A stretch of DNA of 64,000 nucleotides from a virus (taxonomy: Duplodnaviria; Heunggongvirae; Uroviricota; Caudoviricetes), in IMG/VR virus record IMGVR_UViG_2875703104_000004; one strand, 5' to 3'. Below are positions 4,210 to 26,159 of the stretch, one piece after another; position 1 is the first letter of the stretch; each line of letters starts with the position of its first letter. Under the pieces are notes generated by a model. The model worked only from the letters and a program-made list of their open reading frames with translations, was not told where the DNA came from and made no database searches. The translations under genes were made by a program, and so were the position numbers.

Positions 4210-4215
4210 TCCGTG

Positions 4216-4981: not shown

Positions 4982-4992
4982 AAGGGGGATGT

Positions 4993-5571: not shown

Positions 5572-5963
5572 AACATACTGAATTCCGTGCAGCCGTACTG
5601 GATGCACTGGAAAAACATGACACCGGGGCGACGCTTTTTGATGGTCGCCCCGCTGTTTTTGATGAGGCGGATTTTCCGGCAATTGCCGTTTATCTCACCG
5701 GCGCTGAATACACGGGCGAAGAGCTGGACAGCGATACCTGGCAGGCGGAGCTGCATATTGAAGTTTTCCTGCCTGCTCAGGTGCCGGATTCAGAGCTGGA
5801 TTCGTGGATGGAAAGCCGGATTTATCCGGCGATGAGCGATATCCCGGCACTGTCAGATTTGATCACCAGTATGGTGGCCAGTGGCTATGACTACCGGCGC
5901 GACGATGATGCGGGCCTGTGGAGTTCAGCCGATCTGACTTATGTCATTACCTATGAAATGTGA
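5568..5963 (+). CDS. U: minor tail protein U (tail terminator)
   Basis: 131-aa ORF overlapping the Z stop (ATGA); size and position of lambda U. Confidence 0.85.
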
Positions 5964-5970
5964 GGACGAT

Positions 5971-6711: not shown

Positions 6712-6726
6712 TCCGGAGAGTCAGCG

Positions 6727-7565: not shown

Positions 7566-10054
7566 ACCGGTAGGCGATCTGGTCGTTGATTTAAGTCTGG
7601 ATGCGGCCAGATTTGACGAGCAGATGGCCAGAGTCAGGCGTCATTTTTCCGGTACGGAAAGTGATGCGAAAAAAACAGCGGCAGTCGTTGAACAGTCGCT
7701 GAGCCGACAGGCGCTGGCTGCACAGAAAGCGGGGATTTCCGTCGGGCAGTATAAAGCCGCCATGCGTATGCTGCCTGCACAGTTCACCGACGTGGCCACG
7801 CAGCTTGCAGGCGGGCAAAGCCCGTGGCTGATCCTGCTGCAACAGGGTGGTCAGGTTAAGGACTCCTTCGGCGGGATGATCCCCATGTTCCGGGGGCTTG
7901 CCGGTGCGATCACCCTGCCGATGGTCGGGGCCACCTCGCTGGCGGTGGCGACCGGTGCGCTGGCGTATGCCTGGTATCAGGGTAACTCAACCCTGTCCGA
8001 TTTCAACAAAACGCTGGTCCTTTCCGGCAATCAGTCGGGTCTGACGGCAGATCGTATGCTGGTCCTGTCCAGAGCCGGGCAGGCGGCAGGGCTGACGTTT
8101 AACCAGACCAGCGAGTCACTCAGCGCACTGGTTAAGGCGGGAGTAAGCGGTGAGGCTCAGATTGCATCCATCAGCCAGAGTGTGGCGCGTTTCTCCTCTG
8201 CATCCGGCGTGGAGGTGGACAAGGTCGCTGAAGCCTTCGGGAAGCTGACCACTGACCCGACGTCGGGGCTGACGGCGATGGCGCGCCAGTTCCATAACGT
8301 AACGGCGGAGCAGATTGCGTATGTTGCTCAGTTGCAGCGTTCCGGCGATGAATCCGGGGCATTGCAGGCGGCGAACGAGGCCGCAACGAAAGGGTTTGAT
8401 GACCAGACCCGACGCCTGAAAGAGAACATGGGCACGCTGGAAACCTGGGCAGACAGGACAGCACGGGCATTCAAATCCATGTGGGATGCGGTGCTGGATA
8501 TTGGTCGTCCTGATACCGCTCAGGAGATGCTGATTAAGGCAGAGGCTGCGTTTAAGAAAGCGGACGACATCTGGAATCTGCGCAAGGATGATTATTTTGT
8601 TAACGATGAAGCGCGGGCGCGTTACTGGGATGATCGTGAAAAGGCCCGTCTTGCGCTTGAAGCCGCCCGAAAGAAGGCTGAACAGCAGAGTCAACAGGAC
8701 AAAAATGCGCAGCAGCAGAGCGATACCGAAGCATCACGGCTGAAATATACCGAAGAGGCGCAGAAGGCTTACGAACGGCTGCAGACACCGCTGGAGAAAT
8801 ATACCGCCCGTCAGGAAGAACTGAACAAGGCACTGAAAGACGGGAAAATCCTGCAGGCAGATTACAACACGCTGATGGCGGCGGCGAAAAAGGATTATGA
8901 AGCGACGCTGAAAAAGCCGAAACAGTCCGGCGTGAAGGTGTCTGCGGGCGATCGTCAGGAAGACAGTGCTCATGCTGCCCTGCTGACGCTTCAGGCTGAA
9001 CTCCGGACGCTGGAGAAGCATGCCGGAGCAAATGAGAAAATCAGCCAGCAGCGCCGGGATTTGTGGAAAATCCCTGCTGGCGCATAAAGATGAGACGCTG
9101 GAGTACAAACGCCAGCTGGCTGCACTTGGCGACAAGGTTACGTATCAGGAGCGCCTGAACGCGCTGGCGCAGCAGGCGGATAAATTCGCACAGCAGCAAC
9201 GGGCAAAACGGGCCGCTATTGATGCGAAAAGCCGGGGGCTGACTGACCGGCAGGCAGAACGGGAAGCCACGGAACAGCGCCTGAAGGAACAGTATGGCGA
9301 TAATCCTCTGGCGCTGAATAACGTCATGTCAGAGCAGAAAAAGACCTGGGCGGCTGAAGACCTGCTTCGCGGGAACTGGATGGCAGGCCTGAAGTCCGGC
9401 TGGAGTGAGTGGGAAGAGAGTGCCACGGACAGTATGTCGCAGGTTAAAAGTGCTGCCACGCAGACCTTTGATGGTATTGCGCAGAATATGGCGGCGATGC
9501 TGACCGGCAGTGAACAGAACTGGCGCAGCTTCACCCGTTCCGTGCTGTCCATGATGACAGAAATTCTGCTTAAGCAGGCAATGGTGGGGATTGTCGGGAG
9601 TATCGGCAGCGCTATTGGCGGGGCTGTTGGTGGCGGCGCATCCGCGTCAGGCGGTACAGCCATTCAGGCCGCTGCGGCGAAACTCCATTTTGCAACCGGA
9701 GGATTTACGGGAACCGGCGGCAAATATGAGCCAGCGGGGATTGTTCACCGTGGTGAATTTGTCTTCACGAAGGAGGCAACCAGCCGGATTGGCGTGGGAA
9801 ATCTCTACCGGCTGATGCGCGGCTATGCCACCGGCGGTTATGTCGGTGGCACCGGAAGTCCGGCGCAAATGCGGCGTTCAGAGGGTATCAGGTTTGAGCA
9901 GAACAACAACGTGGTGATTCAGAACGACGGTACGAATGGTCTGCCAGGTCCACAGATGATGAAGGCGGTGTATGACATGGCCCGCAAGGGTGCCCGTGAT
10001 GAAATCCAGGCACAGATGCGCGATGGTGGTCTGTTCTCCGGAGGTGGACGATGA
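7558..10054 (+). pseudogene. H: tail tape measure protein H, frame broken at about 9068
   Basis: N-terminal ORF 7558..9087 and C-terminal ORF 9020..10054 are both H-like; this copy lacks 64 bp that the second copy has at about 31017-31080. Confidence 0.8.
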
Positions 10055-10380
10055 AAACCTTCCGCTGGAAAGTGAAACCCGGGATGGATGTGACATCGGC
10101 TCCTTCCGTCAGGGAGGTGCGCTTTGGTGATGGCTATTCCCAGCGTGCGCCTGCCGGGCTGAACGCTGACCTGAAAACGTACAGCGTGACGCTGTCTGTC
10201 TCCCGTGAGGAGGCCACGGCGCTGGAGTCGTTTCTGGCTGAGCACGGGGGCTGGAAGGCCTTTCTGTGGACGCCGCCTTATGGTTACAGGCAGATAAAGG
10301 TGACCTGCGCAAAATGGTCGTCGCGGGTCAGTATGCTGCGTGTTGAGTTCAGCGCAGAGTTTGAACAGGTGGTGAACTGA
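10051..10380 (+). CDS. M: minor tail protein M
   Basis: 109-aa ORF starting MKTFRWKVKP; overlaps the H stop. Confidence 0.85.
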   Translation: MKTFRWKVKPGMDVTSAPSVREVRFGDGYSQRAPAGLNADLKTYSVTLSVSREEATALESFLAEHGGWKAFLWTPPYGYRQIKVTCAKWSSRVSMLRVEFSAEFEQVVN

Positions 10381-11078
10381 TGCAGGATATCCGGCAGGAA
10401 ACATTGAATGAATGCACCCGTGCGGAGCAGTCGGCCAGCGTGGTGCTCTGGGAAATCGATCTGACAGAGGTCGGTGGAGAACGTTATTTTTTCTGTAATG
10501 AGCAGAACGAAAAAGGTGAGCCGGTCACCTGGCAGGGGCGACAGTATCAGCCGTATCCCATTCAGGGGAGTAGTTTTGAACTGAATGGCAAAGGCACCAG
10601 TACGCGCCCCACGCTGACGGTTTCTAACCTGTACGGTATGGTCACCGGGATGGTGGAAGATCTGCAGAGTCTGGTCGGCGGAACGGTGGTCAGGCGTAAG
10701 GTTTACGCCCGTTTTCTGGATGCGGTGAACTTCGTCAACGGAAACAGCGACGCCGATCCGGAGCAGGAGGTGATCAGCCGCTGGCGCATCGAGCAGTGCA
10801 GCGAACTGAGTGCGGTCAGTGCCTCCTTTGTACTGTCCACACCGACGGAAACGGATGGTGCCGTTTTTCCGGGGCGCATCATGCTGGCTAATACCTGCAC
10901 CTGGACCTATCGCGGTGATGAGTGCGGTTATCACGGTCCGGCGGTCGCGGATGAATATGATCAGCCGACTTCCGATATCACGAAGGATAAATGCAGCAAA
11001 TGCCTGAGCGGCTGTAAGTTTCGCAATAACGTCGGCAACTTTGGCGGCTTCCTTTCCATTAACAAACTTTCGCAGTAA
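10380..11078 (+). CDS. L: minor tail protein L
   Basis: 232-aa ORF with Cys-rich C-terminus CSKCLSGC and GNFGGFLSINKLSQ. Confidence 0.85.
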   Translation: MQDIRQETLNECTRAEQSASVVLWEIDLTEVGGERYFFCNEQNEKGEPVTWQGRQYQPYPIQGSSFELNGKGTSTRPTLTVSNLYGMVTGMVEDLQSLVGGTVVRRKVYARFLDAVNFVNGNSDADPEQEVISRWRIEQCSELSAVSASFVLSTPTETDGAVFPGRIMLANTCTWTYRGDECGYHGPAVADEYDQPTSDITKDKCSKCLSGCKFRNNVGNFGGFLSINKLSQ

Positions 11079-11083
11079 ATCCC

Positions 11084-11827
11084 ATGACAGAGACAGAATC
11101 AGCGATTCTGGCGCATGCCCGGCGATGTGCGCCAGCGGAGTCGTGCGGCTTCGTGGTGAGAGCGCCGGAGGGGGAAAGATATTTTCCCTGCGTGAATATC
11201 TCCGGTGAGCCGGAGGCGTATTTCCGGATGGCTCCGGAGGACTGGCTGCAGGCAGAGATGCAGGGTGAGATTGTGGCGCTGGTCCACAGTCATCCCGGTG
11301 GTCTGCCCTGGCTGAGTGAGGCCGACCGGCGGCTGCAGGTGCAGAGTGATTTGCCGTGGTGGCTGGTCTGCCGGGGGGCGATTCATAAGTTCCGCTGTGT
11401 GCCGCATCTCACCGGGCGGCGCTTTGAGCACGGGGTGACGGACTGTTACACGCTGTTCCGGGACGCTTACCATCTGGCGGGGATTGAGATGCCGGACTTT
11501 CATCGTGAGGATGACTGGTGGCGTAACGGCCAGAATCTCTATCTTGATAATCTGGAGGCCACAGGGCTGTATCAGGTGCCGTTGTCAGCGGCGCAGCCGG
11601 GCGATGTGCTGCTGTGCTGCTTTGGTTCATCGGTGCCGAATCATGCCGCTATTTACTGTGGTGACGGCGAGCTGCTGCACCATATTCCTGAACAACTGAG
11701 TAAACGAGAGAGGTATACCGACAAATGGCAGCGACGCACACACTCCCTCTGGCGTCACCGGGCATGGCGCGCATCTGCCTTTACGGGGATTTACAACGAT
11801 TTGGCCGCCGCATCGACCTTCGTGTGA
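11084..11827 (+). CDS. K: tail assembly protein K (JAB/MPN plus NlpC/P60-like domains)
   Basis: 247-aa ORF with HSHPGG motif (JAB metalloprotease-like) and Cys/His residues. Confidence 0.85.
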   Translation: MTETESAILAHARRCAPAESCGFVVRAPEGERYFPCVNISGEPEAYFRMAPEDWLQAEMQGEIVALVHSHPGGLPWLSEADRRLQVQSDLPWWLVCRGAIHKFRCVPHLTGRRFEHGVTDCYTLFRDAYHLAGIEMPDFHREDDWWRNGQNLYLDNLEATGLYQVPLSAAQPGDVLLCCFGSSVPNHAAIYCGDGELLHHIPEQLSKRERYTDKWQRRTHSLWRHRAWRASAFTGIYNDLAAASTFV

Positions 11828-12396
11828 AAACGGGGGCTGAAGCCATCCGCGCACTGGCCACACAGCTCCCGGTGTTTCGTCAGAAACTGAGCGACGGCTG
11901 GTATCAGGTACGGATTGCCGGGCGGGACGTCAGCACGTCCGGGTTAACGGCGCAGTTACATGAGACTCTGCCTGATGGCGCTGTGATTCATATTGTTCCC
12001 AGAGTCGCCGGGGCCAAGTCAGGTGGCGTATTCCAGATTGTCCTGGGGGCTGCCGCCATTGCCGGATCATTCTTTACCGCCGGAGCCACCCTTGCAGCAT
12101 GGGGGGCAGCCATTGGGGCCGGTGGTATGACCGGCATCCTGTTTTCTCTCGGTGCCAGTATGGTGCTCGGTGGTGTGGCGCAGATGCTGGCACCGAAAGC
12201 CAGAACTCCCCGTACACAGACAACGGATAACGGCAAACAGAACACCTATTTCTCCTCACTGGATAACATGGTTGCCCAGGGCAATGTTCTGCCGGTTCTG
12301 TACGGTGAAATGCGCGTGGGGTCACGCGTGGTTTCTCAGGAGATCAGCACGGCAGACGAAGGGGATGGTGGTCAGGTTGTGGTGATTGGTCGCTGA
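11725..12396 (+). CDS. I: tail assembly protein I
   Basis: ORF overlapping the 3' end of K; hydrophobic Gly/Ala-rich central segment and C-terminal ..GEMRVGSRVVSQEIS..; the start may instead be the internal ATG near 11764. Confidence 0.75.
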   Translation: MAATHTLPLASPGMARICLYGDLQRFGRRIDLRVKTGAEAIRALATQLPVFRQKLSDGWYQVRIAGRDVSTSGLTAQLHETLPDGAVIHIVPRVAGAKSGGVFQIVLGAAAIAGSFFTAGATLAAWGAAIGAGGMTGILFSLGASMVLGGVAQMLAPKARTPRTQTTDNGKQNTYFSSLDNMVAQGNVLPVLYGEMRVGSRVVSQEISTADEGDGGQVVVIGR

Positions 12397-12456
12397 TGCA
12401 AAATGTTTTATGTGAAACCGCCTCCGGGCGGTTTTATCGTTTATGGAGCATGAGGA

Positions 12457-15400
12457 ATGGGTAAAGGCAGCAGTAAGGGGCATACCCCGCGCGAAGCGAA
12501 GGACAACCTGAAATCATCCCAGATGCTGAGCGTGATAGACGCCATCAGCGAAGGGCCGGTTGAAGGTCCGGTGGATGGATTAAAAAGCGTGCTGCTGAAC
12601 AGTACGCCGGTGCTGGACAGTGAGGGGAATACCAATATATTCGGCGTCACGGTGGTGTTCCGGGCCGGTGAGCAGGAGCAGACACCGCCGGAGGGATTTG
12701 AATCCTCCGGCTCCGAGACGGTGCTCGGTACAGAAGTGAAATATGACACGCCGATCACCCGGACCATCACGTCGGCAAACATTGACCGTCTGCGTTTTAC
12801 TTTCGGCGTGCAGGCACTGGTGGAAACCACCTCAAAGGGGGACAGGAATCCATCGGAAGTCCGCCTGCTGGTTCAGATTCAACGTAACGGTGGCTGGGTG
12901 ACGGAAAAAGACATCACCATTAAGGGCAAAACCACGTCGCAGTATCTGGCCTCGGTGGTGGTGGATAACCTGCCGCCGCGCCCGTTTAATATCCGGATGC
13001 GCAGGATGACGCCGGACAGCACCACAGACCAGTTGCAGAACAAAACGCTCTGGTCGTCATACACCGAAATCATCGATGTGAAACAGTGCTACCCGAACAC
13101 GGCACTGGTCGGCGTACAGGTGGACTCGGAGCAGTTCGGCAGCCAGCAGGTGAGCCGTAATTATCATCTTCGCGGGCGCATTCTGCAGGTGCCGTCGAAC
13201 TATAACCCGCAGACGCGGCAATACAGCGGTATCTGGGACGGAACGTTTAAGCCAGCATACAGCAACAACATGGCCTGGTGTCTGTGGGATATGCTGACCC
13301 ATCCGCGCTACGGCATGGGGAAACGTCTTGGTGCGGCAGATGTGGATAAATGGGCGCTGTATGTCATCGGCCAGAATTGCGACCAGTCAGTGCCGGACGG
13401 CTTTGGCGGCACGGAGCCGCGCATCACCTGTAATGCGTACCTGACCACACAGCGCAAGGCGTGGGATGTGCTCAGTGATTTTTGCTCGGCGATGCGCTGT
13501 ATGCCGGTATGGAACGGGCAGACGCTGACATTCGTGCAGGACCGACCGTCGGATAAGGTGTGGACCTATAACCGCAGTAATGTGGTGATGCCGGATGATG
13601 GCGCGCCGTTCCGCTACAGCTTCAGCGCCCTGAAAGACCGCCATAATGCCGTTGAGGTGAACTGGATTGACCCGGATAACGGCTGGGAGACGGCGACAGA
13701 GCTTGTGGAGGACACGCAGGCCATTGCCCGTTACGGTCGTAACGTCACGAAGATGGATGCCTTTGGCTGTACCAGCCGGGGGCAGGCACACCGCGCCGGG
13801 CTGTGGCTGATTAAAACGGAGCTGCTGGAAACGCAGACCGTGGACTTCAGCGTGGGTGCAGAAGGGCTTCGCCATGTACCGGGCGATGTCATTGAAATCT
13901 GTGATGATGACTATGCGGGGATCAGCATCGGCGGGCGCGTGCTGGCGGTGAACAACCAGACGCGGACACTGACGCTCGACCGTGAAATCACGCTGCCATC
14001 CTCCGGCACCACGCTGATAAGCCTGGCTGACGGACAGGGGAATCCGGTCAGCGTGGAGGTCCAGTCCGTCACCGACGGCGTGAAGGTAAAAGTGAGCCGT
14101 GTTCCTGACGGCGTTGCAGAATACAGCGTGTGGGGGCTGAAGTTGCCAACGTTGCGCCAGCGCCTGTTCCGCTGTGTGAGTATCCGTGAGAACGATGACG
14201 GCACGTATGCCATCACTGCCGTGCAGCATGTACCGGAAAAAGAGGCCATCGTGGATAACGGGGCGCACTTTGACGGCGACCAGAGCGGCACGGTGAATGG
14301 TGTCACGCCGCCAGCGGTGCAGCACCAGCGGGGAATATCAGGTGCTGGCGCGCTGGGACACGCCGAAGGTGGTGAAGGGGGTGAGCTTTATGCTTCGCCT
14401 GACCGTGGCAGCGGATGACGGCAGTGAGCGGCTGGTCAGCACGGCCCGGACGACGGAAACCACATACCGCTTCAGGCAACTGGCGCTGGGGAACTACAGG
14501 CTGACAGTCCGGGCGGTAAATGCGTGGGGGCAGCAGGGCGATCCGGCATCGGTATCGTTCCGGATTGCCGCACCGGCAGCGCCGTCGCAGATTGAGCTGA
14601 CACCGGGGTATTTTCAGATAACCGCCACGCCGCATCTTGCGGTTTATGATCCGACGGTACAGTTTGAGTTCTGGTTCTCGGAAAAGCGGATTGCGGATAT
14701 CAGGCAGGTTGAAACCACAGCACGCTATCTTGGCACGGCGCTGTACTGGATAGCCGCCAGTATCAATATCAAACCGGGCCATGATTATTATTTTTACATC
14801 CGCAGTGTGAACACCGTTGGCAAATCGGCATTTGTGGAGGCTGTTGGCCAGCCGAGTGATGATGCATCCGGCTATCTGAATTTTTTCAAAGGAGAGATAG
14901 GGAAAACCCATCTGGCTCAGGAGTTGTGGACGCAGATTGATAACGGTCAGCTTGCGCCTGACCTGGCTGAAATCAGGACGTCCATTACGGGTGTCAGCAA
15001 TGAAATCACGCAGACCGTCAATAAGAAACTGGAAGACCAGAGTGCAGCGATCCAGCAGATACAGAAGGTTCAGGTTGATACAAATAATAACCTGAACAGC
15101 ATGTGGGCTGTGAAGCTGCAGCAGATGCAGGACGGACGCCTTTATATCGCGGGTATTGGTGCCGGTGTTGAGAATACTCCTGACGGTATGCAGAGTCAGG
15201 TGCTGCTGGCGGCGGACAGGATTGCGATGATTAATCCTGCGAATGGCAACACAAAGCCGATGTTTGTTGGGCAGGGCGATCAGATATTCATGAACGAAGT
15301 GTTCCTGAAATATCTGACGGCTCCCACCATTACCAGCGGTGGCAATCCCCCAACGTTTTCACTGACACCTGATGGTCGACTTTCTGCGAAAAATGCGGAT

Positions 15401-15916
15401 ATCAGCGGTAACGTGAACGCGAACTCCGGGACGCTCAACAACGTCACGATTAATCAGAACTGTCGGATTCTGGGAAAACTGTCAGCTAACCAGATTGAAG
15501 GTGATATTGTCAAAACGGTGGGAAAAGCCTTTCCGAGAAATGGCAGTTATGCCAGCGGTACAATAACGGTCACTGTGTACGATGACCAGGCTTTTGACCG
15601 TCAGATAGTAGTCCCCCCCGTTCTGTTTCGTGGGGGTAAGCATGAAAACTTCAACAGCAACAACCAACAGTCATACTGGTATTCAACCTGTAAGCTGCAG
15701 GTACTGAAGAACGGACAGGAAATCTTTCAGCAACCCGCGACGGATGTCAGCAGGGTATTTTCATCAGTCATTGATATGCCTGCCGGACACGGCCATGTCA
15801 CCCTGACTTTCAATGTTTCTTCATATGGTGCTAATAACTGGACGCCAACGACCAGTATCAGCGACCTTCTTGTTGTTGTGATGAAGAAATCTACAGCCGG
15901 TATCAGTATCAGTTGA
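12457..15916 (+). pseudogene. J: tail tip / host specificity protein J, frame broken at about 14326-14333
   Basis: ORFs 12457..14418 and 14297..15916 both fit J; this copy has 7 nt where the intact third-module J has 30 nt. Confidence 0.8.
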
Positions 15917-15934
15917 ATTTTATAACCCAGATAC

Positions 15935-15960
15935 GGGCGCCAGAAATGGCGCCTTTTTTA
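15935..15960 (+). terminator. rho-independent terminator downstream of J
   Basis: gggcgcc-agaaat-ggcgcc hairpin followed by TTTTTT; identical element at 57963-57988. Confidence 0.6.
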
Positions 15961-15974
15961 TTTGTGGAGTGAAT

Positions 15975-16799
15975 ATGGCAGTACAGATTTCAGGCGTGCT
16001 GAAAGACGGTGCAGGAAAACCGATACAGAACTGCACCATTCAGCTCAAAGCAAAACGTAACAGCACCACGGTTGTGGTGAACACGGTGGCCTCAGAAAAT
16101 CCGGATGAAGCCGGACGTTACAGCATGGATGTCGAGTATGGCCAGTACAGCGTTATCCTGCTGGTTGAAGGTTTTCCGCCTTCACATGCCGGGGCCATCA
16201 CCGTGTATGAGGATTCTAAGCCGGGGACATTGAATGATTTTCTGGGCGCTGCAACAGAAGATGATGTTCGTCCGGAGGCACTGTATCGTTTTGAAAAGAT
16301 GGTGGAAGAGGTGGCACGCAACGCTGAAGCCGCCTCTCAGAGCGCAGCGGCAGCAAAGAAATCAGAAACAGCAGCGGCATCGTCCAGGAATGCGGCGAAA
16401 ACATCAGAGACGAATGCAGGTAACAGCGCGAAAGCGGCAGCTTCTTCAAAAACAGCCGCACAAAACGCAGCAACAGCGGCAGAACGTTCAGAGACAAATG
16501 CCCGTGCGTCAGAAGAAGCCTCCGCAGACAGTGAAGAGGCTTCCCGCCGTAATGCAGAGTCAGCCGCTGAAAATGCCGGAGTCGCCACCACAAAAGCGCG
16601 GGAGGCCGCAGCAGACGCAACAAAGGCCGGGCAGAAAAAGGATGAGGCTCTGTCGGCAGCGATAATTAAAAACGATGCACACCGGGTTTTTACCGCGTTA
16701 ATGATTCGCGGGTTTATCCCGGTGCGATGGTGGAAGAAACAGGAAGCTGTATTACAGAAAGTGCTACTACTGTATCCCGATGCGATGTATGTAATGTGA
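15975..16799 (+). pseudogene. stf: side tail fibre protein, N-terminal fragment only
   Basis: Starts MAVQISGVLKDGAGKPIQNCTIQLKAKRNSTTVVVNTVASENPDEAGRYSMDVEYGQYSV with Ala/Ser-rich repeats; ORF ends after ~275 codons in unrelated sequence. Confidence 0.7.
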
Positions 16800-16881
16800 G
16801 TCAGATAATGGCACAGGATGTGGTGATGTGGCAGTCTGGAACACAGGATATATTGTCAGAATAAGACCCGTAGGAATAAAA

Positions 16882-17208
16882 ATGAAAAGACGCCTTTTAC
16901 TACTTTTTCTGTTATCTGTCCTGGCAGTGGGATGCTCGCAGCAAAAAGCTGATGAGCCCCGGCAATTAGTGACGGTGTATCCACGATATCCGGAATATGC
17001 TGCAGCAAATTATATCAAGGGGCTGGTTGAGGTTAAGTTCGATATTGGTGCTGATGGGACTGTGACACGGATCGTTTTTCTCCGCTCAGAGCCTCATAAT
17101 TTGTTTCGTGATGAAGTGGTGAAGGCCATGGCGAAATGGCGATTTGAAAAGAATCGCCCCTGTCAGGGAGTGAAGAGACAATTTATCTTTACGCCGTCAC
17201 GTCCTTGA
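16882..17208 (+). CDS. small lipoprotein with TonB C-terminal-like domain
   Basis: MKRRLLLLFLLSVLAVGCSQ is a signal peptide with lipobox; the rest (YP.YP..A....G.VEVKF.I.ADG.V..I....S.......EV..A...WRF) fits the TonB_C pattern. Confidence 0.6.
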   Translation: MKRRLLLLFLLSVLAVGCSQQKADEPRQLVTVYPRYPEYAAANYIKGLVEVKFDIGADGTVTRIVFLRSEPHNLFRDEVVKAMAKWRFEKNRPCQGVKRQFIFTPSRP

Positions 17209-17300
17209 TGCTTCCAGGTAGAGAGGGGCTGGANGCAGGAGAAAAATGAAAGAGCCAGCGGTTATATTTTTGTCATGGCTGACGAGGAATGATGGAAGAA

Positions 17301-17323
17301 GGCGTTGTATGCCACACAACGCC
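17301..17323. terminator. hairpin between convergent genes (possible bidirectional terminator)
   Basis: ggcgttgt-atgccac-acaacgcc, a perfect 8-bp stem flanked by T-rich sequence on both strands. Confidence 0.45.
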
Positions 17324-17330
17324 TCACTGT

Positions 17331-17823
17331 TCATTTCTTCTTTTTCTCTGGTGGAACCCGATGAATAAGAGTTGCACTGGTTTCCGATGAGATGGCGATA
17401 TACTCGGGCAAAGTATGCTGGCAGTTTTCCAACTGGTCAAAAATACCTGCTCTCGTCTGTTGCAATGCCTGCAGCATGCGGCGGCAATGCGCCTTGCTTT
17501 TACTAACCATCTTTCCTTCCTCTATCAGTCGCTGCGTGAACTCATCATGNAATACCAGGTAAATGCGGATGTTATCGGTTTTGGCTACGCAGCATAGTAC
17601 AAAACGGACAGGTGCATCCCGGGACGGGGGAGGCGTCACATGTCCCTGTGATGGTTGTTCCGGGTAATGNACTGTGTGGGGCATAAAAATGTCCGATAAT
17701 TTTACTTTCTACCGCAGTTAGTTGATTCGTTGGTCCTGGTAGCACATTGGGCGAGGATTTAAATGCCAGGCAACTGAAGGATGATGTNGCAAGGGAGATA
17801 GCGAGAATATTTCTGATTTTCAT
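17331..17823 (-). CDS. candidate secreted protein gene(s); frame uncertain because of ambiguous bases
   Basis: Minus-strand ORF from ATG 17823 begins MKIRNILAISL.TSSFSCLA (signal-peptide-like) with several Cys; an overlapping ORF 17331..17684 continues in another frame; n bases at 17550, 17670 and 17788. Confidence 0.3.
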
Positions 17824-17838
17824 TTGATGATGCCTCTG

Positions 17839-18138
17839 TGTGAAATGACGGTAAACGACGCACTTGTGCCGGCACATAATAGCAAGCACCATAATAGATC
17901 AGATTCGATTCTTGCTGTAAGTGATAATTATTCTCGTTTTCGGGTCCTTTCCGTCGATCCAACAGGTTACGGGGCGGCGACCTCGCGGTGTGAAATGACG
18001 GTAAACGACGCACTTGTGCCGGCACATAATAGCAAGCACCATAATAGATCAGATTCGATTCTTGCTGTAAGTGATAATTATTCTCGTTTTCGGGTCCTTT
18101 CCGTCGATCCAACAGGTTACGGGGCGGCGACCTCGCGG
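17839..18138. repeat. tandem duplication (2 x 150 bp) of the phage right-end / cosQ-cosN segment
   Basis: tgtgaaatgacggtaaacgacgcac...ggttacggggcggcgacctcgcgg occurs at 17839-17988 and 17989-18138; each copy ends in a cosN-like GGGCGGCGACCT. Confidence 0.85.
18122..18133 (+). other. cosN-like cohesive-end sequence GGGCGGCGACCT (second copy at 17972-17983)
   Basis: Followed by CGCGGGTTTTCGCTATTTATGAAAATTTT and the Nu1 gene, the arrangement remembered for the lambda left end. Confidence 0.75.
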
Positions 18139-18302: not shown

Positions 18303-18851
18303 ATGAACGTCAATAAGAAAAAACTGGCCGATATTTTTGGCGTTGATGTCAGGACCATCACCGCCTGGCAGAGTCAGGGGTTACCACTAGTTTCTGGTGG
18401 AGGGAAAGGGACTGAATCAGTTTTTGATACAACTGCTGCCATTCAGTGGTATGCGCAGAGGGAAGCTGATATTAAAAACGAAAAACTCCGTAAAGAGATC
18501 GAGGATTTGAGGGCTGCCAGCGAATCAGACCTTCAGCCCGGCACCATTGATTACGAACGTTACCGACTGACGAAGGCACAGGCCGATGCACAGGAGCTGA
18601 AAAATGCTCGTGAGGAAGGCCTTGTCCTCGAGACGGAGTTATTTACCTACATCTTTCAGCGAGTGGCACAGAATATATCAGGGATCCTTGTCCGTGTCCC
18701 TCAGACACTGCAGCGTAAATACCCTGATATATCACCCGTACATCTTGATGCTGTGAAAACTGAAATCGCGAAAGCATCCGATGTGGCTTCTGAAGCCGGT
18801 GAGAATGTGCGCAGGTGGATTGATGATTTCAGACGAACTGAGGGCGGCTAA
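18303..18851 (+). CDS. Nu1: terminase small subunit (lambda Nu1-like)
   Basis: 182-aa ORF with N-terminal winged-[27 protein letters not shown] and conserved [25 protein letters not shown]. Confidence 0.9.
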
Positions 18852-20941: not shown

Positions 20942-22646
20942 AACGAACGCCTGTCCTGATTGATGTGAACGGCGTTCCGCTTCGGGAGAGCCTCAGCTAC
21001 AACGGGGGCGGCGCAGGATTTGGCGGGCAAATGGCGGAGTGGTTGCCACCGGCGCAGAGTGCCGATGCGGCCCTGCTGCCCGCGTTGCGTCTGGGGAATG
21101 CCCGGGCAGATGATCTGGTGCGCAATAACGGGATAGCGGCCAATGCGGTGGCCCTGCATAAGGATCACATTGTCGGGCATATGTTTCTTATCAGCTACCG
21201 CCCGAACTGGCGCTGGCTGGGGATGCGGGAGACCGCGACAAAAAGTTTTGTCGATGAGGTGGAGGCGGCCTGGTCAGAATACGCAGAAGGGATGTTTGGT
21301 GAGATCGACGTGGAAGGGAAACGCACGTTTACGGAATTTATCCGTGAAGGTGTGGGCGTTCATGCGTTTAACGGCGAAATCTTTGTGCAGCCGGTCTGGG
21401 ATACGGAGAGCACGCAACTGTTTCGTACGCGTTTTAAAGCCGTGAGTCCGAAACGGGTGGACACGCCAGGACACGGTATCGGGAACCGTTTTCTGCGGGC
21501 CGGTGTGGAGGTTGATCGATATGGCCGTGCCGTTGCGTACCATATCTGTGAGGATGATTTTCCTCGCTCCGGGAGTGGACGATGGGAACGGATCCCGCGT
21601 GAACTTCCCACCGGGCGTCCGGCCATGCTGCATATTTTCGAGCCGGTGGAGGACGGGCAGACCCGTGGGGCCAACCAGTTTTACAGCGTCATGGAACGGC
21701 TGAAGATGCTCGATTCCCTGCAGGCAACACAGCTTCAGTCGGCCATTGTCAAGGCGATGTATGCAGCGACAATTGAAAGTGAACTGGATACCGAAAAGGC
21801 CTTTGAATATATCGCCGGTGCGCCGCAGGGGCAGAAGGATAATCCGCTTATTAATATTCTGGAGAAGTTCTCCAGCTGGTATGACACGAATAACGTGACG
21901 CTGGGCGGTGTCAAAATTCCGCACCTTTTCCCTGGTGATGATCTGAAACTACAGACAGCGCAGGATTCAGACAATGGATTTTCTGCGCTTGAACAGGCGC
22001 TGCTGCGGTATATCGCCGCCGGTCTTGGCGTTTCCTACGAACAGTTGTCCCGTGATTACTCGAAGGTCAGTTACTCAAGTGCCCGCGCCTCCGCCAATGA
22101 GTCGTGGAACAGGCGCTGCTGCGGTATATCGCCGCCGGTCTTGGCGTTTCCTACGAACAGTTGTCCCGTGATTACTCGAAGGTCAGTTACTCAAGTGCCC
22201 GCGCCTCCGCCAATGAGTCGTGGCGCTATTTTATGGGGCGGCGAAAATTTATTGCGTCCCGGCTGGCCACGCAGATGTTTTCCTGCTGGCTGGAAGAGGC
22301 ACTTCTGCGGGGGATTATCCGTCCGCCACGGGCACGTTTTGATTTTTATCAGGCGCGTTCAGCCTGGTCACGGGCTGAGTGGATTGGTGCCGGAAGAATG
22401 GCCATTGACGGGCTCAAGGAGGTTCAGGAATCGGTGATGCGTATTGATTCCGGACTGAGCACGTATGAGAAAGAGCTGGCGCTGATGGGCGAGGATTATC
22501 AGGACATTTTCCGCCAGCAGGTCAGGGAATCTGCAGAGCGGGAAAAAGCCGGACTCTCACGTCCGGTGTGGATAGCGCAGGCGTATCAGCAGCAGATAGC
22601 GGAGAGTCGCAGGCCGGAAGAGGAGACAACACCACGTGAGACGTAA
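20938..22646 (+). pseudogene. B: portal protein (lambda gpB-like), frame broken by the same 116-bp tandem duplication
   Basis: ORF 20938..22437 plus C-terminal ORF 22104..22646 in another frame; paralogue of 1..1244. Confidence 0.8.
21991..22222. repeat. tandem direct duplication, 2 x 116 bp, same sequence as 589-820
   Basis: gaacaggcgctgctgcgg...gagtcgtg at 21991-22106 and 22107-22222. Confidence 0.9.
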
Positions 22647-24689
22647 TCTTTCACACATTATTGCAGCAGCATTCAATGAACCGCTGCTTCTGGAGCCCGC
22701 CTATGCGCGGGTTTTCTTTTGCGCGCTCGGGCGCGAGATGGGGGCAGCAAGTCTTTCGGTACCGCAACAGCAGGTACAGCTTGATGCTCCCGGGATGCTG
22801 GCTGAAACGGACGAGTACATGGCCGGAGGTAAACGACCGGCCCGTGTTTACCGGGTGGTGAACGGTATTGCGGTACTGCCGGTGACCGGCACGCTGGTGC
22901 ACCGGCTGGGGGGGATGCGGCCATTTTCCGGAATGACTGGCTATGACGGCATTGTCGCCTGTCTTCAGCAGGCAATGGCAGATAGCCAGGTGCGGGGCAT
23001 ACTGCTGGACATTGACAGTCCGGGCGGGCAGGCCGCCGGCGCGTTTGACTGCGTTGACATGATTTACCGCCTCCGGCAGCAGAAGCCGGTCTGGGCACTG
23101 TGCAATGACACGGCCTGTTCTGCAGCCATGCTGCTGGCGTCGGCCTGCTCCCGACGGCTGGTTACCCAGACATCCCGTATCGGCTCCATTGGCGTGATGA
23201 TGAGCCATGTCAGCTATGCCGGTCATCTGGCGCAGGCCGGTGTGGATATCACGCTGATTTACTCAGGGGCGCACAAGGTGGATGGCAATCAGNGGTGCAC
23301 CGGCTGGGTGGTATGCGGCCATTTTCCGGAATGACAGGCTATGACGGCATTGTCGCCTGTCTTCAGCAGGCAATGGCGGATAGCCAGGTGCGGGGCGTAC
23401 TGCTGGACATTGACAGTCCGGGCGGGCAGGCCGCCGGCGCGTTTGACTGCGCTGACATGATTTACCGCCTCCGTCAGCAGAAGCCGGTCTGGGCACTGTG
23501 CAATGACACGGCCTGTTCTGCAGCCATGCTGCTGGCGTCGGCCTGCTCCCGACGGCTGGTTACCCAGACATCCCGTATCGGCTCCATTGGCGTGATGATG
23601 AGCCATGTCAGCTATGCCGGTCATCTGGCGCAGGCCGGTGTGGATATCACGCTGATTTANNCNGGGGCGCACAAGGTGGATGGCAATCAGTTTGAAGCGT
23701 TGCCGGCAGAGGTTCGCCAGGACATGCAGCAGCGGATTGATGCGGCGCGCCGGATGTTTGCCGAAAAAGTGGCGATGTATACCGGTCTGTCTGTTGATGC
23801 CGTCACGGGAACAGAGGCTGCCGTTTTTGAAGGTCAGTCCGGCATTGAGGCCGGGCTGGCGGATGAATTAATCAATGCGTCGGATGCCATCAGTGTGATG
23901 GCCACGGCGCTGAACAGTAATGTCAGAGGAGGCACTATGCCGCAATTAACTGCAACGGAAGCCGCCGCTGCCGTTTTTGAAGGTCAGTCCGGCATTGAGG
24001 CCGGGCTGGCGGATGAATTAATCAATGCGTCGGATGCCATCAGTGTGATGGCCACGGCGCTGAACAGTAATGTCAGAGGAGGCACTATGCCGCAATTAAC
24101 TGCAACGGAAGCCGCCGTGCAGGAGAACCAGCGAGTGATGGGGATCCTGACATGCCAGGAAGCGAAAGGACGTGAACAGCTTGCCACGATGCTGGCAGGG
24201 CAACAGGGCATGAGCGTTGAACAGGCCCGGGCGATTCTGGCCGCGGCGGCACCGCAGCAGCCGGTGGCATCCGCACAGAGTGAAGCCGATCGCATTATGG
24301 CGTGTGAAGAAGCGAACGGTCGTGAACAACTGGCAGCAACGCTGGCGGCGATGCCGGAGAGGACGGTGGAAAAAGCCCGCCCGATCCTGGCTGCTTCACC
24401 GCAGGCGAATGCCGGGCCCTCACTTCGTGATCAGATCATGGCACTGGATGAGGCAAAAGGGGCTGAGGCGCAGGCTGAACAGCTGGCTGCCTGCCCGGGA
24501 ATGACTGTGGAGAGCGCCCGGGCTGTGCTGGCTGCGGGATCAGGTAAGGCAGAACCGGTCTCTGCATCCACAACCGCCCTGTTTGAACATTTCATGGCGA
24601 ACCATTCACCGGCTGCGGTCCAGGGGGGCGTGTCACAGGCGTCAGAAGACGGTGATGCGGACGTGAAAATGCTCATGGCCATGCCATGA
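22636..24689 (+). CDS. C: prohead protease / scaffold (gpC-like), second copy, with internal duplications
   Basis: Same motifs as 1234..2739; frame interrupted at n 23293 where 22896-23292 is repeated at 23294-23690; additional in-frame 150-bp tandem duplication at 23821-24120. Confidence 0.7.
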
Positions 24690-24725
24690 AGTCAGTGCTG
24701 AACATCAATACGAGGTTTTAACAAT

Positions 24726-25073
24726 ATGGTGACGAAAACCATCACTGAACAGCGTGCGGAAGTACGTATTTTTGCCGGTAATGATCCGGCTCACACCGCC
24801 ACAGGCAGCAGCGGGATTTCCTCGGCAACACCGGCACTGACACCCCTGATGCTGGATGGGGCCACCGGGAAACTGGTGGTCTGGGACGGACAGAAAGCCG
24901 GTAGTGCGGTTGGCATACTGGTACTGCCGCTTGAAGGCACAGAGGCGGTGCTGACGTATTACAAGTCGGGGACCTTTGCGACGGAGGCAATCCGCTGGCC
25001 TGAAAGTGTGGATGAACACAAAAAGGCCAACGCCTTTACCGGCAGTGCCCTGAGTCACGCGGCGCTGCCGTAA
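24726..25073 (+). CDS. D: head decoration protein (gpD-like)
   Basis: Paralogue of 2776..3123 with a few substitutions. Confidence 0.8.
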   Translation: MVTKTITEQRAEVRIFAGNDPAHTATGSSGISSATPALTPLMLDGATGKLVVWDGQKAGSAVGILVLPLEGTEAVLTYYKSGTFATEAIRWPESVDEHKKANAFTGSALSHAALP

Positions 25074-25130
25074 CACGTTATCAGGCCACCGCGTTGGCCT
25101 GACTGATTTCTTAATGAAAGGAACTGATTT

Positions 25131-26159
25131 ATGGGATTGTTTACGACCCGCCAGTTACTCGGTTATACCGAACAAAAAGTGAAATTCCGTGCGCTGTTTC
25201 TGGAGCTGTTTTTCCGCCGTACGGTGAATTTCCACACCGAAGAGGTGATGCTGGACAAAATTACCGGAAAAACGCCGGTGGCGGCCTATGTCTCCCCGAT
25301 CGTTGAAGGAAAAGTGCTTCGCCATCGCGGTGGTGAAACCCGCGTGTTACGTCCGGGCTACGTCAAGCCCAAACACGAATTTAATTACCAGCAGGCGGTT
25401 GAGCGCCTTCCTGGTGAAGATCCGGCTCAGCTGAACGACCCGGCCTACCGTCGTCTGCGTATCATTACCGATAACCTCAAACAGGAAGAGCACGCCATTG
25501 TCCAGGTGGAAGAAATGCAGGCGGTGAATGCCGTGCTGTATGGCAAATACACCATGGAAGGGGATCAGTTTGATACTGTCGAGGTGGATTTCGGGCGCTC
25601 TGAAGGAAATAACATTGAGCAGGCTGACGGTAAAAAATGGTCTGAGCAGGACCGTGATACGTTTGATCCGACGCATGATATTGACCTCTACTGCGATCAG
25701 GCCAGCGGCCTTGTGAATATCGCCATTATGGACGGTACGGTCTGGCGTCTGCTGAATGGCTTTAAGCTGTTCCGCGAAAAACTGGATACCCGTCGCGGCT
25801 CAAATTCACAACTCGAAACGGCAGTGAAAGACCTGGGGGCGGTGGTGTCCTTCAAGGGGTATTACGGCGATCTGGCCATTGTGGTGGCGAAAACGTCTTA
25901 TGTGGCAGAGGACGGTACCGAAAAACGTTATCTGCCGGAGGGCACACTGGTCCTGGGGAATACGGCAGCAGAGGGCATTCGTTGCTATGGTGCCATTCAG
26001 GATGCGCAGGCGTTGTCCGAAGGTGTGGTGGCCTCTTCCCGTTATCCGAAACACTGGCTGACCGTGGGCGATCCGGCCCGTGAATTCACCATGACGCAGT
26101 CCGCACCGCTGATGGTGCTGCCGGATCCGGATGAGTTTGTGGTGGTACAGGTGAAATAA
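25131..26159 (+). CDS. E: major capsid protein (gpE-like)
   Basis: 342-aa paralogue of 3181..4209. Confidence 0.9.
   Translation: MGLFTTRQLLGYTEQKVKFRALFLELFFRRTVNFHTEEVMLDKITGKTPVAAYVSPIVEGKVLRHRGGETRVLRPGYVKPKHEFNYQQAVERLPGEDPAQLNDPAYRRLRIITDNLKQEEHAIVQVEEMQAVNAVLYGKYTMEGDQFDTVEVDFGRSEGNNIEQADGKKWSEQDRDTFDPTHDIDLYCDQASGLVNIAIMDGTVWRLLNGFKLFREKLDTRRGSNSQLETAVKDLGAVVSFKGYYGDLAIVVAKTSYVAEDGTEKRYLPEGTLVLGNTAAEGIRCYGAIQDAQALSEGVVASSRYPKHWLTVGDPAREFTMTQSAPLMVLPDPDEFVVVQVK

What the first reader, a model, noticed from the sequence alone, without database searches (positions are those of the whole stretch)
16882..17208. Phage right-end cargo: lipoprotein with a TonB C-terminal-like domain
A 108-aa ORF has a signal peptide with lipobox (LAVGC) followed by a segment fitting the TonB_C pattern. 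It lies in the accessory region just upstream of cos, where lambdoid phages carry lysogenic-conversion genes. A lipoprotein displaying a TonB_C-like domain could interfere with TonB-dependent receptors, for example superinfection exclusion of TonB-dependent phages or colicins, or altered iron uptake. I do not recognise this as a described phage function.
Basis: inference. Interest (0 to 1): 0.6.

Follow-up and report, generated by a model that had tools for sequence, protein, structure and literature searches.

The report
Phage lipoprotein made of TonB's tip
A small gene carried by phage 21-type prophages in about a quarter of E. coli genomes encodes an outer-membrane lipoprotein that is essentially just the receptor-binding end of the TonB protein; it is real, conserved and expressed in lysogens, its function has never been tested, and the best guess is that it acts as a decoy that uncouples TonB-dependent receptors.

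Summary
ORF 16882-17208 (+) encodes a 108-aa protein with a signal peptide, a lipobox (L-A-V-G-C18) and a complete TonB C-terminal domain. Pfam TonB_C scores 49.2 bits against a cut-off of 24.6. It is 41% identical to E. coli TonB 150-230. The AlphaFold model superposes on TonB from the BtuB and FhuA complexes at about 1 Å.

The DNA is 99.9% identical to phage 21. There the gene lies between the lysis genes/bor and cos. It occurs in 1225 of 5426 complete E. coli genomes.

It is not a tonB fragment. It belongs to a family of stand-alone TonB_C lipoproteins found after the lysis cassette of many enterobacterial prophages, and at a syntenic chromosomal locus in Klebsiella/Raoultella. dN/dS between two alleles is about 0.12. 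In strain LF82 it is transcribed 8-fold above prophage background.

Databases already call it "TonB family protein". I found no functional study.

The best explanation is an inference: an outer-membrane-tethered decoy that captures TonB boxes (or TonB itself). This would blunt TonB-dependent uptake of phages, colicins and microcins. It cannot be self-exclusion, because phage 21 uses LamB.

In this window the upstream junction (truncated tail fibre | gene region, 16661|16662) looks like an assembly chimera.

The parts
16882..17208 (+). CDS of the 108-aa TonB_C lipoprotein, stop codon included. It is identical to phage 21 CPT_21_73 / WP_000830178.1.
   Evidence: 100% protein identity to phage 21, ev017, Perceval, PhiR47_2, PhiR57_1 and PhiR63_2
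16872..16875 (+). Shine-Dalgarno AGGA, 6 nt upstream of the ATG
   Evidence: Sequence. It corresponds to the RBS annotated in phage 21 at L001 8173-8176 (offset).
16882..16935 (+). Signal peptide, residues 1-17, plus the lipidated Cys18. The lipobox L14-A15-V16-G17-C18 is at 16921-16935. Ser at +2 predicts outer-membrane sorting.
   Evidence: Sequence. Cys18 is invariant in alignments A1 and A3. The sorting rule is established knowledge and was not tested.
16957..17190 (+). TonB C-terminal domain, residues 26-103. The model gives a short strand at 28-30, then helix 38-42, strands 47-55 and 61-70, helix 76-83 and the final strand 94-103. The YP motif is Y36-P37.
16662..16881 (+). The only 220 bp of native upstream DNA retained in this window (phage 21-like). 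It has no consensus sigma-70 promoter and no Fur box.
15969..16661 (+). Truncated side-tail-fibre (stf) N-terminal part. It abuts the phage 21-like right-end DNA at 16661|16662, which is a non-native junction.
   Evidence: Pfam phage_tail_N. 100% identity to the Nissle stf up to 16662. Breakpoint.
17942..17948 (+). cosQ, placed by alignment to the annotated phage 21 record. The right cohesive end is at about 17971.
18303..18851 (+). Terminase small subunit Nu1, the first gene after cos
   Evidence: Pfam Phage_Nu1, 286 bits

Best explanation
**What it is.** The gene is a genuine, selected cargo gene (a moron) of lambdoid prophages that is expressed in the lysogen. [quoted passage not shown] About eight residues after the lipid anchor, the rest of the protein is a complete TonB C-terminal domain. 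It lacks TonB's membrane anchor and proline-rich spacer, so it cannot transmit energy.

**Proposed mechanism (inference).** The domain sits at the periplasmic face of the outer membrane. There it captures the TonB boxes of TonB-dependent transporters by strand pairing on its last beta-strand, residues about 94-103, as TonB does. Alternatively it pairs with the C-terminal domain of the scarce host TonB. Either way, receptors are uncoupled from the ExbB-ExbD-TonB motor.

**Proposed benefit.** The benefit is not self-exclusion, because phage 21 uses LamB. The lysogen would instead become less sensitive to agents that need TonB:
- T1/phi80-type phages;
- group B colicins;
- siderophore-receptor microcins;
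- albomycin.

The cost would be reduced siderophore and B12 uptake.
For: **Shown here**
- The protein has a TonB_C profile match, 41% gapless identity to TonB 150-230, and a confident model matching TonB from the BtuB and FhuA complexes at about 1 Å.
- It has a signal peptide and lipobox with an invariant Cys, Ser at +2, and only about 8 residues between the Cys and the domain.
- The TonB hallmark core residues are kept: Y36-P37 (YP motif), F53, F75, W86 and F103, aligned with TonB Y163-P164, F180, F202, W213 and F230.
- Selection is purifying. dN/dS is 0.12-0.13 between alleles that are 72% identical, at dS about 1.4.
- The gene is in 1225 of 5426 complete E. coli genomes, mostly at 99% identity or more.
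- It holds the same post-lysis, pre-terminase slot in prophages with different lysis and packaging modules in E. coli-, Salmonella-, Klebsiella- and Serratia-type elements.

**From papers**
- The gene is transcribed 8-fold above prophage background in an LF82 lysogen (PMC9928086 Table 1).
- Phage 21's native receptor is LamB.
- A periplasmically expressed TonB C-terminal fragment inhibits FhuA/FecA transport (Howard et al. 2001, J Bacteriol 183:5885; reference and title seen).
- Irreversible T1 adsorption needs TonB and energy (PMC11658791).
- Phage lipoproteins Llp/Cor already act on the periplasmic face of FhuA.
Against: - No binding or phenotype was tested. The mechanism rests on homology and topology only.
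- Three TonB residues implicated in receptor contact, as I recall the literature, differ here: R158 to T31, Q160 to Y33 and R166 to Y39 (alignment).
- TonB-dependent transporters can far outnumber a weakly expressed lipoprotein, so a receptor-titration decoy might have little effect.
- Syntenic chromosomal orthologues in Klebsiella/Raoultella argue for a housekeeping envelope role that need not be inhibitory or anti-phage.
- There is no hit in the PADLOC defence models.
- No recognisable promoter or Fur box lies upstream.
Confidence: 0.45

Rival explanations
1. It is an envelope-structure lipoprotein. The outer-membrane-anchored TonB_C domain binds peptidoglycan or another envelope protein. 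It would contribute to envelope integrity or stress and serum resistance, like its neighbour Bor/Iss, with no effect on TonB-dependent transport.
For: - Vertically inherited chromosomal orthologues lie at a conserved Klebsiella/Raoultella locus, next to a glycine-zipper lipoprotein and a DUF1440 membrane protein.
- The Klebsiella phage copy also has a DUF1440 gene nearby.
- In E. coli it sits beside bor/iss and in prophages that also carry a porin gene.
- TonB_C domains occur in many non-TonB proteins, including multi-repeat ones.
Against: - The closest structural and sequence relatives are genuine TonB domains taken from receptor complexes, not TolA or other TonB_C-like proteins.
- Peptidoglycan binding by the TonB C-terminal domain is, as far as I know, weakly established.
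- No peptidoglycan-binding motif was identified here.
Confidence: 0.2
2. It is a late-gene accessory of lysis or progeny release. The gene is co-transcribed with S-R-Rz from the late promoter and acts during the lytic cycle. It might help outer-membrane disruption, or stop progeny or foreign phages from engaging receptors on dying cells. The PHROG label 'Rz-like spanin' points this way.
For: - The protein matches phrog_1267 'Rz-like spanin' over its full length, E 5e-43.
- The gene has the same orientation as the late operon and lies directly downstream of endolysin/Rz in many phages.
- No independent consensus promoter was found.
Against: - Phage 21 already has a complete Rz/Rz1 spanin pair upstream.
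- The protein is a folded TonB domain, not a short proline-rich o-spanin.
- It is expressed in the uninduced lysogen.
- Chromosomal orthologues exist with no lysis genes nearby.
Confidence: 0.1
3. It is a non-functional relic: a captured 3' fragment of a host tonB gene, as the annotations 'TonB fragment' and 'partial tonB-like' imply.
For: - Database names (35-row).
- Many truncated copies are present in draft assemblies.
Against: - It has its own start codon, RBS, signal peptide and lipobox.
- dN/dS is about 0.12.
- The full length is conserved across genera at 36-50% identity.
- It is only 41% identical to E. coli TonB, so it is not a recent capture.
- It is transcribed in the lysogen.
Confidence: 0.03

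Closest known systems
TonB C-terminal domain of E. coli TonB (PDB 1U07, 2GSK chain B, 2GRX chain C)
   Same: The fold and hallmark residues are the same. There is 41% identity over 81 ungapped residues, rmsd about 1 Å, and the last strand (TonB's beta3) is conserved. As I recall from the published complexes, that strand is the one that pairs with the TonB box.
   Different: - It has no N-terminal transmembrane anchor and no proline-rich spacer, so there is no link to ExbB/ExbD.
- It is anchored to the outer membrane by a lipid instead.
- It ends 5 residues after the last core strand, lacking TonB's C-terminal KINGTTEIQ tail.
- Residues equivalent to R158, Q160 and R166 are T, Y and Y.
Llp (phage T5) and Cor (phi80, HK022, N15, mEp167) superinfection-exclusion lipoproteins
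   Same: These are small phage-encoded lipoproteins of the outer membrane's inner leaflet. They act on the periplasmic face of a TonB-dependent transporter, FhuA.
   Different: - The fold is unrelated. The PDB fold search returned TonB/TolA domains, and no entry described as Llp is in the 50 rows listed.
- Llp/Cor block the carrier phage's own receptor. Phage 21 uses LamB, so any exclusion here would be directed at other phages or toxins and could be generic for all TonB-box proteins.
Periplasmically expressed TonB fragments (Howard, Herrmann, Stratilo and Braun 2001)
   Same: A free TonB C-terminal region in the periplasm acts as a dominant-negative inhibitor of FhuA/FecA transport. Only the title and reference were seen.
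   Different: Those are laboratory constructs that are soluble in the periplasm. This is a natural gene with a lipid anchor and a diverged sequence.
Bor/Iss and Lom, lambdoid lysogenic-conversion envelope proteins
   Same: Same genomic neighbourhood: bor/iss is the adjacent gene in phage 21 and Nissle. Like bor, which is also a lipoprotein, it is an envelope-protein cargo gene expressed in lysogens.
   Different: The domain is different, and no serum-resistance or adhesion evidence exists for this protein.

Membership tests
Pfam TonB_C (PF03544) / TIGR01352 tonB_Cterm domain family | Profile score above the curated cut-off | tested here: met
   49.2 bits against 24.6. 47.4 bits against 27.1.
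Pfam TonB_C (PF03544) / TIGR01352 tonB_Cterm domain family | TonB C-terminal-domain fold (helix, two strands, helix, final strand) with the YP motif | tested here: met
   The AF2 model has pLDDT above 96 over residues 30-100. Foldseek top hits are 1u07, 2gsk_B and 2grx_C at rmsd 0.7-1.2 Å. Y36-P37 is invariant or nearly invariant.
Energy transducer TonB (NCBIfam equivalogs NF008080-NF008084) | Whole-protein score above the equivalog cut-off | tested here: not met
   Best score is 69.2 bits against a cut-off of 315. Only the C-terminal 85 positions of the profile match.
Energy transducer TonB (NCBIfam equivalogs NF008080-NF008084) | N-terminal uncleaved transmembrane anchor that couples to ExbB/ExbD, and a proline-rich periplasmic spacer | tested here: not met
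   The N-terminus is an 18-residue lipoprotein signal peptide. Only about 8 residues separate Cys18 from the domain, and there is no Pro-rich segment.
Energy transducer TonB (NCBIfam equivalogs NF008080-NF008084) | Binding to TonB boxes of outer-membrane transporters | not testable with these tools
   This needs a co-fold or an experiment.
Bacterial lipoproteins (lipobox, signal peptidase II substrates) | Basic n-region, hydrophobic h-region and a [LVI..][ASTVI..][GAS]-C lipobox within the first 15-35 residues | tested here: met
   K2-R3-R4, then L5-V16, then A-V-G-C18. The Cys is invariant in relatives. The pattern rule was applied from memory, with no LipoP or SignalP run.
Bacterial lipoproteins (lipobox, signal peptidase II substrates) | Actual lipidation and outer-membrane localisation | not testable with these tools
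   Ser at +2 (no Asp) predicts Lol-dependent sorting to the outer membrane. This is an inference only.
Llp/Cor superinfection-exclusion lipoproteins | Llp-like fold or sequence family | tested here: not met
   PDB fold hits are TonB and TolA domains only among the listed matches. No Pfam family other than TonB_C was found.
Llp/Cor superinfection-exclusion lipoproteins | Blocks the receptor used by the carrier phage | tested here: not met
   Phage 21's native receptor is LamB, which is not TonB-dependent (10.1101/2024.04.15.589635).
Spanins (PHROG phrog_1267 is labelled 'Rz-like spanin') | Small outer-membrane lipoprotein encoded within or next to its inner-membrane partner Rz, or a single-chain spanin with a C-terminal transmembrane segment | tested here: not met
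   A genuine Rz/Rz1 pair lies upstream in phage 21 and bor lies in between. The protein is a globular TonB domain with no C-terminal transmembrane segment. The PHROG label is probably a misnomer.
Morons (autonomously expressed prophage cargo) | Transcribed in the repressed prophage | not tested
   Literature only: LF82_160 'TonB fragment' is 8-fold above the local prophage background (PMC9928086 Table 1). Perceval carries the identical protein.
Morons (autonomously expressed prophage cargo) | Own promoter and terminator flanking the gene | tested here: inconclusive
   No + strand consensus promoter or terminator was found near the gene. Simple consensus scans are weak evidence.
Known anti-phage defence systems (PADLOC-DB v2) | Match to any defence-protein model | tested here: not met
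   0 families at E up to 1.

The most novel reading that the evidence does not exclude
Lambdoid prophages of Enterobacterales carry a previously uncharacterised class of lysogenic-conversion protein. It is an outer-membrane-tethered copy of the TonB C-terminal domain that acts as a generic decoy for TonB boxes, or for TonB itself. It would partly shut down the whole TonB-dependent import pathway. One small gene would then give broad protection against heterologous TonB-dependent phages, group B colicins and siderophore-receptor microcins. In the phage 21 lineage the iron cost could be offset by the co-carried TonB-independent SitABCD transporter.
Probability: 0.3. Interest if true: 0.7.

Novelty: new variant of a known kind. 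Interest (0 to 1): 0.48.

Why it matters
If the decoy model is right, a gene present in roughly a quarter of sequenced E. coli would modulate sensitivity to TonB-dependent phages, colicins, microcins and sideromycin antibiotics. Carriers include Nissle 1917, AIEC LF82, Stx1a phages and the classic laboratory phage 21. The gene would also affect iron and B12 acquisition.

That bears on phage-therapy host range, on microcin-based competition in the gut, and on siderophore-antibiotic conjugates. It would add a pathway-level mechanism to the receptor-specific exclusion lipoproteins Llp and Cor.

If the model is wrong, the chromosomal orthologues in Klebsiella/Raoultella still mark an uncharacterised envelope lipoprotein family.

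The experiments are simple, because phage 21 and K-12 are standard tools.

Tried and rejected
1. **Fragment of host tonB: rejected.** The gene has its own signal peptide and lipobox, is only 41% identical to TonB, shows dN/dS of 0.12, and has full-length homologues in other genera.
2. **Self-exclusion like Cor/Llp: rejected.** Phage 21 uses LamB.
3. **Iron regulation.** The best Fur-box match upstream is 11/19, which is background level in the window.
4. **Own promoter or terminator.** The consensus scans found none on the + strand. This is inconclusive.
5. **Functional linkage with sitABCD.** All six distinct phages with this allele carry sit. However, 20 sit-carrying phage records lack the gene, and phages with the 72% allele are absent from the sitA hit list. 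This is linkage within one lineage, not a rule.
6. **Known RNA in the region.** Rfam gave nothing.
7. **Viral structure library (BFVD).** No significant TonB-fold match.
8. **PADLOC.** No match.
9. **First AF2 run.** With a 10-sequence alignment it gave a poor model, pLDDT 61. It was superseded by the 28-sequence run.
10. **Calls that failed.** PMC99666 (Howard 2001) is not held, so only its title and reference are cited.
11. **Literature.** Nine searches found no functional study of a phage-encoded TonB_C protein.

Full report
**1. The observation**

The ORF is present exactly as described. ATG 16882 to the stop at 17206-17208 on the + strand gives 108 aa: MKRRLLLLFLLSVLAVGCSQQKADEPRQLVTVYPRYPEYAAANYIKGLVEVKFDIGADGTVTRIVFLRSEPHNLFRDEVVKAMAKWRFEKNRPCQGVKRQFIFTPSRP. 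An AGGA ribosome-binding site precedes it at 16872-16875.

The N-terminus has a K-R-R n-region, a leucine-rich core and the lipobox L-A-V-G-C18. Ser follows at +2. By the established +2 rule this predicts Lol-dependent sorting to the outer membrane. That prediction is my inference, because no LipoP or SignalP tool was available.

The TonB_C assignment is well above chance:
- Pfam PF03544 scores 49.2 bits against a gathering score of 24.6.
- TIGR01352 scores 47.4 bits against 27.1, and the match aligns to the last ~85 positions of the enterobacterial TonB equivalog models.
- The best solved-structure sequence hits are E. coli TonB C-terminal domains at E about 1e-14.
- BLASTP gives 41% identity over 81 residues without a gap, against TonB 150-230.

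**2. Structure**

A first AlphaFold run on ten close relatives was poor, with pLDDT 61. With a 28-sequence alignment that included distant relatives, mean pLDDT rose to 87 and was above 96 for residues 30-100.

Foldseek against the PDB ranks these chains first, at rmsd 0.7-1.2 Å and target TM about 0.9:
- 1U07;
- the TonB chain of the BtuB:TonB complex (2GSK_B);
- the TonB chain of the FhuA:TonB complex (2GRX_C).

TolA domains follow far behind.

The hallmark residues of TonB are kept: the YP motif (Y36-P37) and aromatic residues F53, F75, W86 and F103, aligned with TonB F180, F202, W213 and F230.

Only about eight residues separate the lipidated Cys from the start of the fold. There is no transmembrane anchor and no proline-rich spacer. 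The scores against the full-length TonB equivalogs are far below cut-off (69 against 315). The protein is therefore a TonB C-terminal domain hung from the outer membrane. It is not a TonB.

Three residues differ from TonB positions that, as I recall the literature, contact receptors: T31 for R158, Y33 for Q160 and Y39 for R166 (alignment). The protein also ends five residues after the last core strand, without TonB's C-terminal tail.

**3. Where it lives**

Window 16662-17971 is 99.7% identical to the right end of phage 21 (OL657228.1). There the gene is annotated CPT_21_73, 'TonB C-terminal domain protein'. The gene order is S21, R21, Rz/Rz1, bor (opposite strand), this gene, two small ORFs, then cosQ and the genome end.

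The same arrangement is in the Nissle 1917 prophage: iss, then 'TonB family protein', then terminase. The identical protein is in phages ev017, Perceval (LF82), PhiR47_2, PhiR57_1 and PhiR63_2.

The DNA is in 1225 of 5426 complete E. coli genomes. The exact protein is on at least 1000 contigs of the large protein collection, always named 'TonB family protein'.

By alignment, cosQ in the window is at about 17942-17948 and the cohesive end is at about 17971. Nu1 starts at 18303.

**4. It is a family, not a fragment**

*A second allele.* An allele 72% identical at the protein level occurs in Stx1a-converting phages, JLK-2012 and Lys8385Vzw, and in prophage contigs. It occupies the same slot after Rz/Rz1 and before the terminase. 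The lysis and packaging modules there are different: Nu1 is 55-86% identical.

*Selection.* Between the two alleles dS is about 1.4 and dN is 0.18, giving dN/dS of 0.12-0.13. The lipobox Cys is preserved.

*Wider relatives.*
- An exhaustive phmmer over 1.84 billion representatives found 2795 TonB_C proteins.
- Among them is a set of short (107-133 aa) full-length relatives at about 31-46% identity. Most have lipoboxes.
- These come from Salmonella enterica, the Klebsiella pneumoniae complex and Gibbsiella.
- Others come from Raoultella, Klebsiella, Serratia, Erwinia and Pantoea.

*Prophage context in other genera.*
- In IMG/VR contigs holding the Salmonella-type protein (94-97% identical to P0037), terminase genes lie downstream in several. 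In one contig an Rz homologue follows the gene rather than preceding it.
- In more distant contigs (39-43% identical to P0037), and in the Klebsiella and Serratia loci, the gene lies a few hundred bases downstream of endolysin/Rz and, where they are visible, upstream of the terminase genes.

*Chromosomal members.* Several Klebsiella and Raoultella species carry an orthologue at a conserved chromosomal locus with no phage genes nearby. The order is lacZ, lacI, an ORF, a glycine-zipper lipoprotein, this gene, DUF1440, DUF1722 and mlrA.

*Distance from TonB.* Over the domain, the window protein is 45-50% identical to the Salmonella, Klebsiella/Raoultella and Gibbsiella lipoproteins, and 41-42% identical to TonB-like domains. 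This is an old, separate lineage. It is not a recent capture of tonB.

The database labels 'TonB fragment' and 'partial tonB-like' are therefore misleading. So is the PHROG label 'Rz-like spanin' for phrog_1267, which the protein matches full-length at E 5e-43.

**5. Expression**

Simple scans find no consensus sigma-70 promoter, terminator or Fur box for the gene. The gene has the orientation of the late operon, so late read-through transcription is expected. That is an inference.

A published LF82 transcriptome lists Perceval LF82_160 'TonB fragment' among prophage genes expressed in the uninduced lysogen. It is 8-fold above the local prophage background. The cI repressor, the nmpC porin and sitABCD appear in the same list (PMC9928086 Table 1). 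The gene therefore behaves as a moron.

**6. What is known**

Nine full-text searches found no functional study of a phage-encoded TonB_C protein.
- The phage 21 genome announcement does not discuss the gene (PMC9119081).
- The only paper naming it is the LF82 study.
- It has no match in PADLOC.
- BFVD has no significant fold neighbour.

**7. Mechanism**

*Shown.*
- The protein has the TonB C-terminal-domain fold.
- It has a lipoprotein signal and a short tether.
- It is under purifying selection.
- It keeps a conserved prophage slot.
- It is expressed in a lysogen (this last point from the literature).

*Inferred.*
- The domain sits against the inner face of the outer membrane. That is where the TonB boxes of FhuA, FepA, BtuB, Cir and others emerge.
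- It binds those TonB boxes by strand addition on its last strand, as TonB does in 2GSK and 2GRX.
- Because it is not connected to ExbB-ExbD it cannot do work. It would therefore act as a competitive, dead-end partner.
- A variant of the same idea is that it pairs with the C-terminal domain of host TonB. TonB is scarce and would be easier to titrate.

*Precedents.*
- Periplasmic TonB fragments are reported to inhibit FhuA- and FecA-mediated transport (Howard et al. 2001; reference seen).
- A TonB-box pentapeptide is reported to inhibit TonB-dependent processes (Tuckman and Osburne 1992; same call).
- T1 adsorption becomes irreversible only with TonB and energy (PMC11658791).
- The Llp/Cor family shows that phages do use inner-leaflet outer-membrane lipoproteins to act on the periplasmic face of a TonB-dependent transporter.

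*Target.* Phage 21 uses LamB. The benefit therefore cannot be self-exclusion. It would be protection from other TonB-dependent phages, group B colicins and siderophore-receptor microcins.

*Confidence.* I put this at about 0.45. The contact residues differ, receptor numbers may swamp a weakly expressed decoy, and the chromosomal orthologues hint at a housekeeping envelope role.

*Rivals.*
- An envelope or peptidoglycan-associated structural lipoprotein: 0.2.
- A lytic-cycle accessory: 0.1.
- A dead relic: 0.03.
- The remainder is something not thought of.

**8. The sit association**

Phage 21 and the related elements examined (Perceval, the Nissle-type prophage remnant in strain CEA601S) also carry sitABCD, a TonB-independent iron/manganese importer. 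All six distinct phages in the phage collection that have this allele also have sitA. However, 20 other sit-carrying records lack the TonB_C gene, and the phages with the 72% allele are absent from the sitA hit list.

The pairing is suggestive of iron compensation. It is explained equally well by lineage linkage.

**9. The window itself**

Upstream of 16662 the window does not continue into bor and the lysis genes. Instead it holds the 5' part of a side-tail-fibre gene that is 100% identical to the stf of the same Nissle-type prophage. In that prophage stf lies 20 kb downstream of the TonB_C gene. The join at 16661|16662 has at most 1 nt of overlap. It is present in none of 5426 complete genomes.

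The window also has the following features:
- 69 N's.
- Several exact 150-151-bp duplications, some adjacent and some distant. One of them, 17838-17988 / 17988-18138, spans cos.
- Three partly homologous sets of phage late genes.

This looks like an assembly chimera of repeated prophage DNA rather than biology. I could not prove that without the reads. It does not affect the gene, which is intact and identical to the reference.

**10. Verdict**

The structural interpretation is right. The functional idea is reasonable, untested and somewhat re-aimed: heterologous, pathway-level interference rather than self-exclusion.

The gene has long been annotated and is already flagged as an expressed moron. 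The novelty therefore lies only in the unexplored function: a natural, lipid-anchored TonB C-terminal-domain decoy would be a new variant of phage-encoded envelope exclusion or conversion proteins. Interest is moderate (0.48). It is easy to test with classical tools.

Noticed in passing
window 16661|16662 (context 15969-16881): There is a non-native junction. The 5' part of a side-tail-fibre gene, 100% identical to the Nissle-type prophage stf, is fused with at most 1 nt of overlap to phage 21-like DNA 220 bp upstream of the TonB_C gene. No complete E. coli genome holds this join. In real prophages the two sequences are about 20 kb apart, in the opposite order.
   Followed up: partly
window 17838-17988 / 17988-18138; also 32637-32787 / 50804-50954 and 58158-58307 / 58970-59119; N's at 17234, 17550, 17670, 17788, 31220-31240, 33839-33859 and elsewhere: There are exact 150-151-bp duplications, some adjacent and some distant. 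One spans cos. The window also has 69 N's and three partly homologous phage late-gene modules (1-16661, 18303 to about 34000, 37051 to about 60000). The repeat length, equal to a short read, suggests assembly artefacts.
   Followed up: partly
window 16882-17208 against PHROG phrog_1267: The protein matches phrog_1267 over its full length (E 5e-43). That family is labelled 'Rz-like spanin' in the lysis category. The protein is a TonB domain, and phage 21 has a separate Rz/Rz1 pair, so the PHROG label is probably wrong.
   Followed up: partly
window 17331-17684 (-) against 17415-17597 (+): GenBank and RefSeq annotate a 60-aa ORF on the + strand here (CPT_21_75 / WP_000881610.1). The opposite strand encodes a peptide whose last 59 residues match phrog_4843 at E 3e-46. 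The coding strand of this small conserved gene between the TonB_C gene and cos is ambiguous.
   Followed up: no
L085-L090 (Klebsiella and Raoultella spp.), about 6400-8300 in each locus: A chromosomal orthologue lies at a syntenic locus: lacZ, lacI, an ORF, a glycine-zipper lipoprotein, TonB_C lipoprotein, DUF1440, DUF1722 and mlrA. The Klebsiella phage ST13-OXA48phi12.4 copy (L130) also has a DUF1440 membrane-protein gene about 3 kb away. This may be a functional link between the two genes.
   Followed up: partly
L129 8968-12417 (phage 21 record 21967-25416); L003 10076-13525: Phage 21 carries the sitABCD iron/manganese transporter. All six distinct phages with the identical TonB_C allele also carry sitA, but 20 other sit-carrying phage records lack the TonB_C gene.
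   Followed up: yes
proteins P0139, P0036, P0043 and P0047: Other unusual TonB_C architectures turned up. P0139 is a 152-aa lipoprotein with a long linker and a domain much closer to genuine TonB (60% to a TonB-like C-terminal domain). This suggests lipid-anchored TonB domains arose more than once. There are also proteins of about 480-510 aa with 4-5 tandem TonB_C repeats.
   Followed up: no
window 12457-14418 and 14297-15916: The tail-tip gene J is split into two overlapping ORFs, which implies a frameshift. The tape-measure and portal genes of the first two modules are similarly broken. This is consistent with sequence errors in the window.
   Followed up: no
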